Below, piece after piece: positions 1-5,444 of a stretch of 5,444 bases of DNA. The stretch is from the IMG/VR virus record IMGVR_UViG_2693429642_000001, positions 1-5,444 of that record. One strand, written 5' to 3'. The first letter of the stretch is position 1. The number at the start of each line of letters is the position of its first letter. The notes under the pieces were generated by a model, which had not been told where the DNA came from, searched no databases, and was given only the letters and a program-made list of their open reading frames with translations. The stretch is from a virus (lineage: Duplodnaviria; Heunggongvirae; Uroviricota; Caudoviricetes). The translations under genes and the position numbers were made by a program.

Positions 1-296
1 CCATTGTCAGTAACTGCCCACCATTTGTTTCTCGAACAATCGTAATACCCTTCGAAGGTATCGCACTCAGTCCAGCCGTAAGACTTACCCCAACACCAAA
101 CATACTGTTTATCGTTCGGCATTCGCTCACTACAGCTTATCCAGCCATCCGTAGTTACCGGAGAATTGCCAGCCTTGCGCATGGCAATCTCCATGATTTC
201 AACCATATCCCCTGGTGGAATTTTACAATGCTGACCAGTATGCCTCTGCTGTCTGGCATATTCGAGGATGTGCTCCAGCTTGGTACGATTAATCAT
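1..296 (-). CDS. DUF551-like phage protein, partial (3' end runs past the left edge of the window)
   Basis: ATG at 296..294 overlaps the TGA stop (295..293) of the upstream gene (ATGA coupling); GGGAGA Shine-Dalgarno 6 nt upstream. Frame is open to position 3 (translation MINRTKLEHILEYARQQRHTGQHCKIPPGDMVEIMEIAMRKAGNSPVTTDGWISCSERMPNDKQYVWCWGKSYGWTECDTFEGYYDCSRNKWWAVTDNG...). The Trp-rich W-I-S-x-x-E-R-M-P segment resembles the DUF551 family common in enterobacterial prophages. Not in the ORF track because it lacks a stop inside the window. Confidence 0.5.
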   Translation of the reverse strand, partial: MINRTKLEHILEYARQQRHTGQHCKIPPGDMVEIMEIAMRKAGNSPVTTDGWISCSERMPNDKQYVWCWGKSYGWTECDTFEGYYDCSRNKWWAVTDN

Positions 297-802
297 GATT
301 TATCTCCCTTAAGCATGGCAGCGCGGCAGGCATCCTCTACGCCCTTAACTGCATCTGCGCAGTAGTTATAGCGATTGCATTCCACTAACTTCTGCTTGAG
401 ATTTTCAATTGATTGCGCGATATCAGCCTGTATTACCGGAGCTGGCGGAACGGCTGTCTGCACTCGAACGTCATCAGGTACTACCGGCTCTACTGCCAAC
501 TGACTGGCATATTTGTTAATGGTAACGATAAGCTCTTGCTCGGCCTCATCCAGACAATCACCGATACCTCGCCTGTCACCATCAAAATCATCGAAATCGG
601 CGCGAATCCTGGCAACCTCCCGGATTGCGGACAACACCTCACCAGGAATTACCGTAGAGTTGCCCGATAGTACATTCTGCTCCAGTGATGCCAGTGCAAT
701 CCGTGCCAGCTCACGAATCTCACCGCCGTCTATATCGTCAATGTCATCACGGCCAGAAATGTTAGCCAGCCATTGCAGTCGCTCTTTGGTAATAGTGATC
801 AT
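293..802 (-). CDS. hypothetical prophage protein (169 aa), acidic
   Basis: Track ORF with ATG start at 802..800 overlapping the upstream stop (ATGA); same strand and coupling as neighbours. No family recognised. N-terminal ~40 aa resemble the N-terminus of ORF 1977..2282 (see findings). Confidence 0.55.
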   Translation of the reverse strand: MITITKERLQWLANISGRDDIDDIDGGEIRELARIALASLEQNVLSGNSTVIPGEVLSAIREVARIRADFDDFDGDRRGIGDCLDEAEQELIVTINKYASQLAVEPVVPDDVRVQTAVPPAPVIQADIAQSIENLKQKLVECNRYNYCADAVKGVEDACRAAMLKGDKS

Positions 803-1314
803 GCCGCGTTTCCTTCTTCCTTATTAACAATTACACCGTCATATATTTCATTAAGGTGCCCTCTCAACTCCATGCGCCTTAATGCAGATAACATGTAATC
901 GCATTCAACCTGCTTATTCCCAGTAAATGGCTTATCGTCAGGATTACCCCAACAGCAATTACCCCTGGGCCATCCATGTACTTTCCGTACTCTTCCGTTA
1001 ACAACGTGAAGTAATCCCCAGCCGGGAGGTAAATCCTCAACTGAAATAATTTCCGGCTCACTAATAAAGAATCGCCAGTCGCCCATGCCAAGTGAGGGAT
1101 TTTTACGGAAACGCTTTTTTCTATCTGCCAACAAGTCAGCACGAGAACACTTCGCTTCTATCAGGCATGATGCTGAATTTCTGAATCCCATAGCATCTGG
1201 CTGTTCTCCGGTACTGGTTACAGCTATAAAGCGGTCATGAAAACAAACCTTGAACCCGTTGCGCTTAAGGAACTTGTACGCAATCTGACAGAGTTCGCGG
1301 TGTGTTAACGCCAT
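799..1314 (-). CDS. PD-(D/E)xK nuclease-fold protein, MmcB-family-like (171 aa)
   Basis: Start trimmed from the track start (1395) to ATG 1314..1312, which has an AAGGAG Shine-Dalgarno 6 nt upstream and sits 1 nt after the upstream TGA stop; the 1395 start has no RBS and would overlap the upstream gene by 80 nt. Protein (MALTHRELCQIAYKFLKRNGFKVCFHDRFIAVTSTGEQPDAMGF...CLIEAKCSRADL...) carries a D...E-x-K arrangement (PDA ... EAK) after a hydrophobic strand, as in PD-(D/E)xK nucleases; overall resembles 'MmcB family DNA repair protein' annotations in enterobacterial prophages (from memory). Confidence 0.55.
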   Translation of the reverse strand: MALTHRELCQIAYKFLKRNGFKVCFHDRFIAVTSTGEQPDAMGFRNSASCLIEAKCSRADLLADRKKRFRKNPSLGMGDWRFFISEPEIISVEDLPPGWGLLHVVNGRVRKVHGWPRGNCCWGNPDDKPFTGNKQVECDYMLSALRRMELRGHLNEIYDGVIVNKEEGNAA

Positions 1315-1315
1315 A

Positions 1316-1990
1316 TCACTCTCCTTTGATGCGAATGCCAGCGGCGCGTGGCACATTAACTTCCACGATGCGCACAGTTGGTTTGTACATCTCAATCGCT
1401 GTCAGCCAGTCAGCGCCAGTCATGCGCTTTTCTGCATCGCCATTAGTCCACTTAACCGGTACACCAATAGCCTTCATCGCGATTTCTATTTCCCCGGCAA
1501 TGGCGCTTTTTCCGCAACCAGTAAAACCAGAAACAACGACAAGAACTTCACCTTTGGCTGGTTTTATTTCCCGTGCTTCCAGTTCAGCAATACGCTTACT
1601 TCCATCCGAGATAACACCTTCGTAATACTCACGCTGCTCGTTGAGTTTTGATTTTGCCGACTCCAGTTGTTTTGTTAGTTCCGCAATACGGCAAACATCG
1701 TTGATACGCGTTTCCTCTAATGCGTTGATCTCATCCAGTAGTGCCAAAGCAACCTTTGGATTAAAGGCAGCAATAAATTCAGCGTTTGCGTAAGCCTGAG
1801 CATCTGTTTCAACCAGGCAGTTAACATGACATTCTGCAATCACGCCACCGGGTTCTCCTTTCCATTTTTGGCAAACAAAAACTCCTGTTAAATTGCCGTG
1901 CTGGTTAACAGATGTATGCCCTACGATGTAGCTTCCTTTAGTTGCTTTCTCTGCCTTTTCACGCAGTGCCTGATAGTTAATCTCGCTCAC
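1316..1990 (-). CDS. Ead/Ea22-like prophage protein with coiled-coil middle and a C-terminal Walker-A-like motif (224 aa)
   Basis: Track ORF 1316..2032 starts at a TTG with no RBS; a better start is GTG 1990..1988, preceded by AAGGAGG with a 6-nt spacer. N-terminal region (INYQALREKAEKATKGS...ANAEFIAAFNPKVALALLDEINALEE) resembles Ead/Ea22-like family proteins of lambdoid prophages (from memory). C-terminal part has EVLVVVSGFTGCGKSAIAG, i.e. hydrophobic strand + GxxxxGKS. Confidence 0.5.
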   Translation of the reverse strand: MSEINYQALREKAEKATKGSYIVGHTSVNQHGNLTGVFVCQKWKGEPGGVIAECHVNCLVETDAQAYANAEFIAAFNPKVALALLDEINALEETRINDVCRIAELTKQLESAKSKLNEQREYYEGVISDGSKRIAELEAREIKPAKGEVLVVVSGFTGCGKSAIAGEIEIAMKAIGVPVKWTNGDAEKRMTGADWLTAIEMYKPTVRIVEVNVPRAAGIRIKGE

Positions 1991-2282
1991 TGGCTGCCTC
2001 CTTTGCTGGGCTTTCGAATATATCAAACTCAAACAACTTAACTACGTCATCAAACAGGACATAATCGCCATCAGAATCTTCAGTCATGTCAGCGCCACAA
2101 TCCTGACCGAACGAGTCACAACCACCCATATCAAGCTCGTATCGCTTGAGTTTTGCGATATTTGATAAATTCAGCGCCAGTACAGCAAGGTCATAAACCT
2201 CGTCAGCGGTATACCCTGCACCATGCCCATACATTTCAATGCGGGATATGATTTCTTCTACACGTTGTTTTGTGATTGTCAT
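1977..2282 (-). CDS. hypothetical prophage protein (101 aa), acidic C-terminus
   Basis: ATG at 2282..2280 overlaps the TGA stop of the upstream gene (ATGA); its 3' end overlaps the next gene's GTG start by 14 nt. No family recognised. Confidence 0.5.
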   Translation of the reverse strand: MTITKQRVEEIISRIEMYGHGAGYTADEVYDLAVLALNLSNIAKLKRYELDMGGCDSFGQDCGADMTEDSDGDYVLFDDVVKLFEFDIFESPAKEAASERD

Positions 2283-2764
2283 TTTTGCTCACCTCCCTGT
2301 TCTTCCAGAAAAATACGCATAGCCTCAAGCATCTCTTCGGTGTCATACGGTGACAACTTGTCACGCAGGATGTGTTCAATGCTGTTAACGAACTTGCGGA
2401 TTGCTTTGCGTTCAATTTCAGCCAGGAAAGCGTCTGTAGCCGGGGTTTGCGGCATACCTCCGTCTGTTGCGCAGATATACGCATCAGATAGTTCATCCTG
2501 CTCGCCATCAAACACGTAGCAACTCTGTACGATAAATTTATTCAGCCCCGCACTCTCCGCTGCCAGCGCCGCGCACTTGGCCTCAAGGTTATCAATCGTG
2601 ATTCCAGCAGAACGACACTCCCGCAACGCCGTTTCTAGTTTTGATTCAAGTTCACCGAACTTACGGACAAGATATTCAGCGTTTGTTTCGTTAACCTTTA
2701 AATCTCGGGGGATGCATTTACCTTTCAGAAATCCATCCATCTCAATTAGTGACATTTGTTTCAT
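2279..2764 (-). CDS. hypothetical prophage protein (161 aa), predicted coiled-coil-rich
   Basis: ATG at 2764..2762 preceded by GGAGTGGGAAG (Shine-Dalgarno-like); long ORF on the operon strand; stop overlaps next start. No family recognised. Confidence 0.55.
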
Positions 2765-5174: not shown

Positions 5175-5444
5175 ATGAGCAGAAAAACCCAACGTTACTC
5201 TAAAGAGTTCAAAGCCGAAGCTGTCAGAACGGTTCTTGAAAATCAACTTTCGATCAGTGAAGGCGCTTCCCGATTATCTCTTCCTGAAGGCACTTTAGGA
5301 CAATGGGTTACCGCCGCCAGAAAAGGGCTCGGTACTCCTGGTTCCCGCACGGTGGCTGAACTGGAATCTGAAATTCTGCAACTGCGTAAGGCGTTAAATG
5401 AAGCTCGCCTTGAGCGAGATATATTAAAAAAAGCAACAGCGTAT
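5175..5444 (+). CDS. IS3-family transposase OrfA (IS600-like), partial at 3' end
   Basis: ATG 5175 with AAGGAG 6 nt upstream; translation MSRKTQRYSKEFKAEAVRTVLENQLSISEGASRLSLPEGTLGQWVTAARKGLGTPGSRTVAELESEILQLRKALNEARLERDILKKATAY has the N-terminal HTH and leucine-zipper-like region of IS3-family OrfA; matches my recollection of IS600 OrfA. Confidence 0.85.
   Translation, partial: MSRKTQRYSKEFKAEAVRTVLENQLSISEGASRLSLPEGTLGQWVTAARKGLGTPGSRTVAELESEILQLRKALNEARLERDILKKATAY
5426..5433 (+). other. putative programmed -1 ribosomal frameshift slippery site (A7G) for OrfAB transposase fusion
   Basis: Run AAAAAAAG at 5426..5433, read in frame as TTA AAA AAA GCA near the end of orfA, which is where IS3-family elements carry their A6G/A7 slippery motif. 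The downstream stimulatory structure and orfB are outside the window. Confidence 0.5.

What the first reader, a model, noticed from the sequence alone, without database searches (positions are those of the whole stretch)
799..1990. Possible two-gene module: Ea22-like protein with a Walker-A (P-loop) C-terminal module, immediately followed by a PD-(D/E)xK nuclease-fold gene
At 1528..1505 the minus strand encodes GFTGCGKS, preceded by the hydrophobic strand EVLVVVS; this is the beta-strand/GxxxxGK[ST] arrangement of P-loop NTPases. It sits in the C-terminal ~80 aa of an otherwise Ea22-like coiled-coil protein. Its stop is 1 nt from the start of a gene whose product shows a D...E-x-K nuclease-type motif. 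NTPase plus nuclease pairs are a recurring architecture of phage-borne defence and abortive-infection systems, and lambdoid 'ea' regions are known hot spots for such cargo. The region after the P-loop is too short for a full NTPase domain, so the motif could be a degenerate remnant or a nucleotide-binding mini-module. This is a hypothesis, not a call.
Basis: inference. Interest (0 to 1): 0.5.

Follow-up and report, generated by a model that had tools for sequence, protein, structure and literature searches.

The report
Ea22 P-loop head beside MmcB-like nuclease
Two neighbouring accessory genes of a lambda-like prophage, an Ea22-family protein ending in a tiny conserved Walker-A domain and a small MmcB-like nuclease, are both real, but they are independently shuffled cassettes and not a dedicated NTPase-plus-nuclease defence pair.

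Summary
GFTGCGKS lies at 1528..1505 on the minus strand, preceded by EVLVVVS, in the last ~80 aa of a 224-aa Ead/Ea22 protein (1990..1316). Its stop is 1 nt from the ATG of a 171-aa gene (1314..799).

The two-gene module idea fails on co-occurrence. In complete E. coli genomes the domain occurs in 367 records, the nuclease gene in 961, and the two are adjacent in only 79. In viral contigs 10 of 79 domain loci carry the nuclease, and 13 of 76 nuclease loci carry the domain. Distant homologues of either gene lack the other. Adjacency comes from a universal Ea22 3' seam (…GIRIKGE-TGA-N-ATG), whose KGE codons form the next gene's Shine-Dalgarno sequence.

Interest is modest. The mini P-loop head is the only unusual element.

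The parts
1316..1990 (-). Gene for a 224-aa Ead/Ea22-family protein (GTG start at 1990, TGA at 1318-1316). It has a variable N-terminal part, a coiled coil and an interchangeable C-terminal head.
   Evidence: ORF and RBS are. Pfam PF13935 scores 100.6 bits on residues 2-138. The same gene call appears on the source contig.
1577..1987 (-). Ead/Ea22 region (residues 2-138), including the central coiled coil.
   Evidence: Pfam Ead_Ea22 matches with E 1.5e-28. Lambda Ea22 is a coiled-coil tetramer with dimeric C-terminal domains (PMC10834534).
1349..1552 (-). Conserved ~70-aa mini P-loop-like domain (residues 147-214, GEVLVVVSGFTGCGKS...VRIVEVNVP). This is an uncharacterised Ea22 C-terminal head variant.
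   Evidence: 441 representative clusters match at E<=1e-3. The domain is C-terminal in 130 and N-terminal in 15 of the 150 classified. 27 columns are invariant. The AF2 model has pLDDT 83. Matches to P-loop families are only sub-threshold.
1505..1528 (-). Walker-A-type motif GFTGCGKS (G155-S162; the lysine is K161).
   Evidence: Position is. GxTGxGKS is kept in 144 of 147 representative homologues. In the model the helix begins at the GKS lysine.
1312..1342 (-). Universal Ea22 3' seam, GGCATTCGCATCAAAGGAGAGTGA-T-ATG. It encodes ...GIRIKGE*, contains the AAGGAG Shine-Dalgarno sequence of the next gene, and serves as the recombination joint for cassette exchange.
   Evidence: The same junction flanks many different upstream and downstream genes. 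The '+GE' tail is noted as unexplained in PMC7093339.
799..1314 (-). Gene for a 171-aa stand-alone PD-(D/E)xK nuclease-fold protein, a distant MmcB-like/DUF1052 relative.
1150..1206 (-). Catalytic core: E37, D40 (start of strand 2), and E53-x-K55 (strand 3).
   Evidence: These residues are invariant in 83 homologues. Their placement on the predicted strands E41-45 and E48-54 fits the canonical PD-(D/E)xK topology.

Best explanation
These are two adjacent but functionally independent accessory cassettes in the exo-xis-type early-left region of a lambdoid prophage. The gene order is kil, cIII, Rad52-like annealase, HNH, SSB, anti-RecBCD, then this region, then DUF551, xis-like, int.

Gene 1 is an Ea22-family protein. 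By homology with lambda Ea22, its coiled coil makes a tetramer that displays an exchangeable C-terminal head. Here the head is a ~70-aa strand / Gly-rich loop / helix domain with an invariant Walker A lysine and a conserved hydrophobic-strand-plus-Glu (RIVE). I infer that it is a phosphate-ligand binding head, for a nucleotide or a nucleic-acid backbone, and not a complete NTPase.

Gene 2 is a small metal-dependent PD-(D/E)xK endonuclease of the MmcB-like/DUF1052 lineage. I infer that it cuts or processes DNA structures in the context of phage recombination or repair.

Both genes are read from the early-left transcript. Gene 2 is translationally coupled because the last Ea22 codons (AAA GGA GAG, K-G-E) are its Shine-Dalgarno sequence. 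That same conserved seam is where cassettes are swapped by recombination, which explains the adjacency without any functional partnership.

Shown here: gene structures, family assignments, the nuclease fold, conservation, and the variable neighbourhoods. Inferred: ligand binding, the oligomeric state of this variant, the nuclease substrate, and the role in the phage life cycle.
For: - Gene models and context.
- Ea22 membership.
- Mosaic N-termini on an identical head.
- The head is found in lambdoid, epsilon15-like (phiV10) and P1-like (JL22, D6) phages followed by different genes.
- Co-occurrence counts: 79/367 and 79/961; 10/79 and 13/76.
- No head in 80 species-level nuclease loci.
- No nuclease next to distant head-bearing proteins.
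- The seam is conserved irrespective of neighbours.
- Nuclease fold and catalytic residues. 3dnx is DUF1052/PF06319 according to PMC3424549.
- Acidobacterial homologues are chromosomal, beside recR-ybaB-dnaX.
- Literature: Ea22 is a tetramer with dimeric, exchangeable C-terminal domains (PMC10834534), and the genes downstream of ea22 are variable (PMC8614690).
Against: - The pair does recur. It is 97-99% identical in a P1-like phage (JL22) and in some lambdoid prophages, so it can travel as a block. An adjacency rate of 8-22% is not negligible given the many alternative neighbours.
- In enterobacterial prophages the nuclease gene is nearly always preceded by some ORF ending in the Ea22 seam, so a generic Ea22-nuclease interplay is not excluded.
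- AlphaFold is known to mis-model Ea22 C-terminal domains depending on construct (PMC10834534).
- No biochemical or genetic test was possible.
Confidence: 0.7

Rival explanations
1. One reading: the Walker-A head and the nuclease form a dedicated two-gene NTPase-plus-nuclease defence or abortive-infection module carried as prophage cargo.
For: The genes are adjacent with translational coupling. The nuclease fold has intact catalytic residues. The Walker A motif is conserved. The same pair is present in a P1-like phage and in lambdoid prophages. The exo-xis or 'ea' region is a variable cargo region (PMC8614690).
Against: Each gene occurs mostly without the other. PADLOC gives no significant match. 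The head is about 70 aa, less than half of any complete P-loop NTPase domain. The coupling seam is generic to all Ea22 genes. The nuclease family is a vertically inherited chromosomal gene in Acidobacteria.
Confidence: 0.05
2. The Walker-A-like sequence is only a structural glycine-rich turn. The head would then be a protein-protein interaction or dimerisation module like other Ea22 C-terminal domains, and would bind no phosphate ligand.
Confidence: 0.3
3. The nuclease works with Ea22 proteins in general, whatever their head. For example, Ea22 might act as a regulator or antidote of the nuclease, so that the relevant module is 'any Ea22 + nuclease'.
For: In 76 viral loci the ORF upstream of the nuclease almost always ends in the Ea22 seam, and most are Ea22-like. 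Enterobacterial species loci L004-L009 and L015 also have upstream ORFs with Ea22-like N-termini or GIxxKGE-type tails. The genes are translationally coupled.
Against: Most Ea22 genes are followed by other genes. Outside Enterobacterales the nuclease family has no Ea22 upstream. The shared seam by itself explains why anything inserted there follows an Ea22 gene.
Confidence: 0.1

Closest known systems
Lambda Ea22 and the Stx-phage Ea22 variants V1-V3 (Pfam PF13935 Ead_Ea22; Goddard et al. 2024, PMC10834534; Dydecka et al. 2020, PMC7093339)
   Same: It has the same N-terminal/coiled-coil Ead_Ea22 region (100.6 bits), the same mosaic build with an exchangeable C-terminal head, the same terminal KGE tail, and the same genomic place between the recombination genes and xis/int.
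   Different: The head is none of the described ones. It does not have the lambda CTD beta-beta-alpha-beta-beta-alpha fold, it is not DUF551 (V2), and the Stx phages that carry V1-V3 lack it. It is net basic (12 K/R against 9 D/E), whereas the described heads are acidic. It carries a Walker A motif.
P-loop NTPases, especially the N-terminal strand-loop-helix-strand of APS kinase and SIMIBI-class enzymes (dethiobiotin synthetase, SRP54/FtsY, GPN GTPases)
   Different: The domain is about 70 aa against 150 or more. It lacks strands 4 and 5, the base-binding and lid elements, and any sensor. Every sequence and structure score is below significance.
Designed minimal 'P-loop prototype' proteins (PDB 6c2u/6c2v, 'phosphate-loop protein')
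   Same: They are small beta-(P-loop)-alpha units without a full NTPase core. 6c2u appears among the sub-threshold profile hits (E 0.61). From my own knowledge, such prototypes bind phospho-ligands and nucleic acids.
   Different: Those proteins are engineered. The match here is motif-level only and not significant, and no binding data exist for the phage domain.
MmcB-like / DUF1052 (Pfam PF06319, COG5321; structure 3dnx SPO1766; Caulobacter MmcB, an SOS-induced endonuclease for mitomycin C tolerance)
   Different: The window protein itself gets no PF06319 hit at E<=1. The family has its own conserved blocks (GMGDWRF, LPxGWGLL, a C-terminal helix with RR). The gene is phage-borne in Enterobacterales. 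Regulation and substrate are unknown.
ATPase-plus-nuclease anti-phage systems (OLD-family/Gabija, PARIS, Septu and similar, as modelled in PADLOC)
   Same: Only the superficial pairing of a Walker A motif with a nuclease fold in a prophage cargo region.
   Different: There is no significant match to any model (best E 0.011 and 0.014, on the coiled coil plus motif). There is no full ATPase domain and no conserved gene pairing.

Membership tests
Ead/Ea22 family (PF13935) | Match to the family profile above Pfam's gathering score | tested here: met
   100.6 bits against a cut-off of 27, E 1.5e-28, residues 2-138 covering profile positions 1-139 of 139.
Ead/Ea22 family (PF13935) | Mosaic build of N-terminal part, coiled coil and exchangeable C-terminal head ending in +GE, located between the recombination genes and xis/int | tested here: met
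   The same head sits on more than 20 different N-termini. The tail is IRIKGE. The features are as described in PMC7093339 and PMC10834534.
Ead/Ea22 family (PF13935) | Tetramer with dimeric head; pro-lysogenic effect | not testable with these tools
   Known only for lambda and P27 Ea22 (PMC10834534). No multimer modelling or genetics was available here.
P-loop NTPase fold | Walker A GxxxxGK[ST] between a hydrophobic strand and a helix | tested here: met
   EVLVVVS-GFTGCGKS. The predicted helix spans domain positions 19-32 and starts at the lysine. The motif is kept in 144 of 147 homologues.
P-loop NTPase fold | Walker B acidic residue at the end of a hydrophobic strand next to strand 1 | tested here: inconclusive
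   V64, I66 and E68 (VRIVE) are invariant. The model shows no paired strands, so the position relative to the P-loop could not be verified.
P-loop NTPase fold | Complete alpha/beta core (at least 5 strands, about 150 aa or more) | tested here: not met
   The domain boundaries are about 70 aa in all architectures, and the protein ends about 10 aa after the third hydrophobic segment.
P-loop NTPase fold | Significant sequence-profile or fold match to a P-loop family | tested here: not met
P-loop NTPase fold | NTP binding or hydrolysis | not testable with these tools
   This needs biochemistry.
PD-(D/E)xK nuclease superfamily | Alpha-beta-beta-beta-alpha-beta core fold | tested here: met
PD-(D/E)xK nuclease superfamily | Catalytic D at the start of strand 2 and (D/E)xK on strand 3 | tested here: met
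   D40, E53 and K55, plus E37, are invariant in 83 sequences and sit on the expected strands.
MmcB-like / DUF1052 (PF06319) | Match to the family profile above the gathering score | tested here: not met
   The window protein has no hit at E<=1. Distant homologues score 22.2 bits (cut-off 22), 17.4, 17.0 and 13.4 bits. It is therefore a sister lineage and not a called member.
MmcB-like / DUF1052 (PF06319) | Closest structural relative is the family's solved structure 3dnx | tested here: met
MmcB-like / DUF1052 (PF06319) | SOS-regulated role in tolerance of DNA crosslinks | not tested
   This is known for Caulobacter MmcB (PMC9578287). Regulation here would come from the phage early-left promoter instead.
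Two-gene ATPase-nuclease defence systems | Conserved co-occurrence of the two genes | tested here: not met
   79/367 and 79/961 in E. coli genomes. 10/79 and 13/76 in viral contigs. 0/80 in species-level nuclease loci.
Two-gene ATPase-nuclease defence systems | Match to models of known defence proteins | tested here: not met
   PADLOC gives no hit for the nuclease. For the Ea22-like protein it gives only E 0.011 and 0.014, at 11.7 and 12.5 bits.
Two-gene ATPase-nuclease defence systems | Protection against phage infection | not testable with these tools
   This needs cloning and a phage panel.

The most novel reading that the evidence does not exclude
The ~70-aa Ea22 head is a natural, autonomous minimal P-loop domain. 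When brought together in twos or fours by the Ea22 coiled coil, it binds a nucleotide or a nucleic-acid backbone, or completes a catalytic site across subunits. Through that it tunes the lysis-lysogeny decision. It would be by far the smallest natural Walker-A domain, and a living counterpart of the designed P-loop prototypes.
Probability: 0.2. Interest if true: 0.65.

Novelty: new variant of a known kind. Interest (0 to 1): 0.3.

Why it matters
Ea22 is the least understood pro-lysogenic protein of lambda and Shiga-toxin phages, and its exchangeable heads are thought to set its function.

- A head with a strictly conserved phosphate-binding-type loop gives a concrete, testable biochemical handle: a ligand to look for and one lysine to mutate. 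The described heads do not offer this.
- The survey also explains the puzzling '+GE' tail of all Ea22 proteins. It is the ribosome-binding site of the next gene and the seam for cassette exchange.
- It assigns the common 171-aa 'hypothetical protein' of Stx and other prophages, present in about 17% of complete E. coli genomes, to the MmcB-like nuclease lineage.
- It removes a tempting but unsupported defence-system annotation.

Tried and rejected
- Pfam, NCBIfam and PADLOC on the 171-aa protein gave nothing. PHROGs gave only unknown-function families, plus a weak 'DNA repair protein' hit at E 0.005.
- Sequence searches of both proteins against PDB chains gave nothing significant. The profile versions gave 3dnx at E 0.2 for the nuclease, and only sub-threshold, motif-level P-loop hits for the head.
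- The fold search of the head model with Foldseek on PDB was uninformative. The afdb50 library was unavailable.
- I considered that the head might be a degenerate remnant of a larger NTPase gene. I rejected this because the domain has sharp, constant boundaries, occurs at C- or N-termini of unrelated proteins, and is strongly conserved.
- I considered that the head might be one of the published Ea22 variants V1-V3. I rejected this because the Stx phages that carry those variants match only the 33-nt seam.
- I considered a Rossmann-type GxGxxG reading. The glycine spacing is GxxGxG and the GK[ST] is invariant, so Walker A fits better. The two readings cannot be separated without coordinates or experiments.
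- The first tblastn tally of head-plus-nuclease adjacency in the viral nuclease loci undercounted (3). The figure of 13 of 76 comes from clustering the upstream ORFs.
- I did not use the third homologue search, because it would only have returned more near-identical Ea22 proteins.
Full report
**1. What is in the sequence**

All genes of the window lie on the minus strand. The finding covers two of them.

- Gene 1 starts at GTG 1990, six bases after AAGGAGG, and stops at TGA 1318-1316. It encodes 224 aa.
- Gene 2 starts at ATG 1314, one base after that stop, and ends at 799. It encodes 171 aa.
- EVLVVVS is encoded at 1549..1529 and GFTGCGKS at 1528..1505 (residues 148-162). PDAMGF and IEAKC of gene 2 are at 1200..1183 and 1161..1147.
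- Gene calls on the public contig that equals the window give the same boundaries (GCA_000941535.1, CDQY01000315.1).
- Longer contigs with the identical protein show the context: kil, cIII, Rad52-like annealase, HNH, SSB, anti-RecBCD, a 161-aa and a 101-aa protein, gene 1, gene 2, a 169-aa protein, DUF551, DUF4222, DUF1233, integrase, then host mlrA.

This is the exo-xis-type early-left accessory region of a lambdoid prophage.

**2. Is the Walker A motif more than chance?**

A bare [AG]xxxxGK[ST] appears in 2.8% of shuffles of this protein, and three times in the six-frame translation of the window. The motif alone is therefore weak evidence. With a hydrophobic run just upstream it appears in 0.055% of shuffles.

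Conservation is what matters. A full HMMER scan of 1.84 billion representatives with residues 143-224 found 441 clusters at E<=1e-3.

- Among the further representatives listed, 144 of 147 keep GxTGxGKS. The intervening positions vary (F/L/I/Y and C/S/V/T).
- In a 38-sequence alignment at 56-93% identity to the window's domain, 27 columns are invariant. They include G13, T15, G16, G18 and K19, the EK and ADW of the middle segment, YKP, and V-I-E of the last hydrophobic segment.

**3. What the C-terminal segment is**

Pfam places Ead_Ea22 on residues 2-138 (E 1.5e-28). Nothing above threshold falls on 147-224. The best matches are APS_kinase at 17.2 bits (cut-off 21.1) and AAA_16 at 13.3 bits. 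NCBIfam and PADLOC give only far-sub-threshold, motif-driven hits.

The segment behaves as an autonomous domain of about 70 aa.

- It has constant boundaries. It is C-terminal in 130, N-terminal in 15 and internal in 5 of the 150 proteins classified. These proteins are 110-623 aa long.
- One of them is a Stenotrophomonas maltophilia prophage protein.
- In E. coli and relatives the identical head sits on more than 20 different N-termini.

An AlphaFold2 model of the domain has mean pLDDT 83, with a helix starting exactly at the GKS lysine, but DSSP finds no paired strands.

- Foldseek finds nothing.
- A profile search of PDB sequences gives no significant hit. Its sub-threshold list is mostly UvrA, ArsA, gluconate, APS, shikimate and cytidylate kinases, and the designed 'phosphate-loop protein' 6c2u.

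My reading is that this is a genuine, conserved strand / Gly-rich loop / helix domain of the P-loop type. It is less than half the size of any complete NTPase and belongs to no described family. Ligand binding is inferred, not shown. AlphaFold has mis-modelled Ea22 heads before (PMC10834534), so the model deserves caution.

**4. How this fits Ea22 biology**

Lambda Ea22 is a coiled-coil tetramer with a dimeric C-terminal domain and favours lysogeny. Stx-phage Ea22 proteins share the N-terminal and coiled-coil parts but carry unrelated heads, called V1, V2 (DUF551) and V3 (PMC10834534; PMC7093339).

The head found here is none of these. Stx phages match the window in the Ea22 N-terminal part and in gene 2 but not in the head. 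The head's DNA is found instead in phiV10, O157 typing phages 9 and 10, D6, JL22 and a few others. It is also net basic, unlike the acidic heads already described. It is therefore a further, undescribed head variant of a known mosaic family.

**5. What the 171-aa protein is**

No Pfam, NCBIfam or PADLOC family matches it. It has hundreds of homologues in Enterobacterales. Species-level genome loci extend the family to Shewanella, Marinobacter, Flavobacterium and many Acidobacteria. E37, D40, E53 and K55 are invariant.

The AlphaFold2 model is confident (pLDDT 91.3, pTM 0.86). D40 sits at the start of strand 2 and E53-x-K55 on strand 3.

- 3dnx is the structure of DUF1052/PF06319/COG5321 in the PD-(D/E)xK census (PMC3424549). 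That family is now named MmcB-like after a Caulobacter SOS-induced endonuclease (PMC9578287).
- The family profile hits 3dnx on the catalytic core at E 0.2.
- An acidobacterial homologue, 36% identical to the window protein, reaches PF06319 at 22.2 bits (cut-off 22). Others score 13-17 bits.

The protein is thus a stand-alone PD-(D/E)xK nuclease of a sister lineage to MmcB-like. In Acidobacteria the gene is chromosomal and lies beside recR-ybaB-dnaX, which fits a role in DNA metabolism.

**6. Are the two genes a module?**

Counts in 5,426 complete E. coli genomes:

| Query | Records with at least 80% of the query covered |
|---|---|
| Head DNA | 367 |
| Nuclease gene | 961 |
| Junction-spanning probe | 79 |

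Counts in IMG/VR viral contigs:

| Set | Result |
|---|---|
| 79 head loci with enough downstream sequence | 10 have the nuclease next; at least 15 other genes take that place |
| 76 nuclease loci with enough upstream sequence | 13 have the head upstream; at least 8 other ORF types take that place, nearly all ending in ...GIRIKGE |

Further points:

- Annotated examples show the head followed by small unrelated genes.
- They also show the nuclease preceded by a 315-aa Ea22 without the head.
- None of 80 species-level nuclease loci contains the head.
- Two distant head-bearing proteins, in Stenotrophomonas and in a metagenomic prophage, have no nuclease nearby.
- The pair does recur intact, for example in the P1-like phage JL22. 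That is what linkage of neighbouring cassettes predicts.

**7. Why the genes are 1 nt apart**

The last 24 nt of the Ea22 gene, its stop codon and the following base and ATG (GGCATTCGCATCAAAGGAGAGTGA-N-ATG) are conserved whatever lies on either side. The codons AAA GGA GAG (K-G-E) contain AAGGAG six bases before the next ATG.

This explains the universal '+GE' tail of Ea22 proteins, whose significance was reported as unknown (PMC7093339). It is the Shine-Dalgarno sequence of the downstream gene, and the conserved patch is the joint at which cassettes are exchanged. Genes downstream of ea22 are known to vary in number and kind (PMC8614690).

**8. Most likely mechanism**

Both genes are transcribed with the early-left operon, and gene 2 is translationally coupled to gene 1.

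- I infer that the Ea22-like protein oligomerises through its coiled coil and displays two to four copies of the mini P-loop head. The head would bind a phosphate-bearing ligand, a nucleotide or a nucleic acid, and would act in the lysis-lysogeny balance as other Ea22 proteins do.
- The nuclease is a metal-dependent endonuclease. I infer that it acts on DNA structures during phage recombination or repair, next to the Rad52-like annealase, SSB and anti-RecBCD genes.
- I put 0.7 on the statement that the two are independent cassettes, about 0.05 on a dedicated defence pair, and about 0.1 on a generic Ea22-nuclease partnership. On the separate question of the head, I put about 0.3 on it binding no phosphate ligand at all.

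**9. Novelty and score**

Both proteins are abundant in databases, annotated as 'ead/Ea22-like' and 'hypothetical'. New here are:

- the recognition of the head as a defined, widespread, uncharacterised mini P-loop-type domain, outside the published Ea22 variants;
- the assignment of the 171-aa protein to the MmcB-like nuclease lineage;
- the explanation of the seam.

The module or defence idea is not supported. Interest is 0.3. If the head proved to be a functional minimal P-loop, it would deserve about 0.65.

Noticed in passing
window 1312-1342 (minus strand); also L087-L246: The universal '+GE' C-terminal tail of Ea22 proteins, reported as unexplained in PMC7093339, is encoded by AAAGGAGAG. 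This is the Shine-Dalgarno sequence of whatever gene follows (spacing of 6 nt to the ATG). The surrounding ~30 nt are conserved regardless of the neighbours, so they look like the recombination seam for cassette exchange.
   Followed up: yes
window 2279-2764 (minus strand): A second Ea22-related gene (161 aa; phrog_614 and phrog_368) lies two genes upstream. Its first ~45 residues ([43 protein letters not shown]) are the N-terminus of other proteins that carry the mini P-loop head (for example P0128). This shows recombination between the two Ea22-type genes.
   Followed up: partly
L039-L083 (Acidobacteria genome loci), around 4000-8300: Homologues of the 171-aa nuclease (about 35% identity) are conserved chromosomal genes in Acidobacteria. 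They lie beside a recR / ybaB / dnaX cluster, downstream of a CHAD-like protein, with no phage context.
   Followed up: partly
L255 (Stenotrophomonas maltophilia CP031058.1) 2622-8232: A 453-aa protein with the mini P-loop domain at its N-terminus lies directly after a DGR-like set (Lcl_C lectin-fold protein, bAvd, reverse transcriptase) and before a DNA methylase, close to a prophage integrase.
   Followed up: no
window 293-802 (minus strand) and window 1-296: The gene after the nuclease (169 aa, phrog_14306, no Pfam family) overlaps it by 4 nt (ATGA). It is followed by a DUF551 protein that runs off the window end. DUF551 is the head of Ea22 variant V2, here encoded as a separate gene.
   Followed up: no
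window 5175-5444: The far end of the window (contig end) carries the start of an IS3-type transposase ORF (HTH_Tnp_1) just beyond the Rad52-like gene. In other assemblies an IS1 fragment lies near the same prophage. The early-left region is therefore truncated by IS elements in this strain.
   Followed up: no
L167 and 24 other viral loci, just upstream of the nuclease gene: In about a third of the viral nuclease loci, the ORF upstream is a 62-aa reading frame (MKNRKAK...RTKGE) that ends in the same KGE seam but has no Ea22 domain. It may be a deletion remnant or an out-of-frame reading of another cassette.
   Followed up: no
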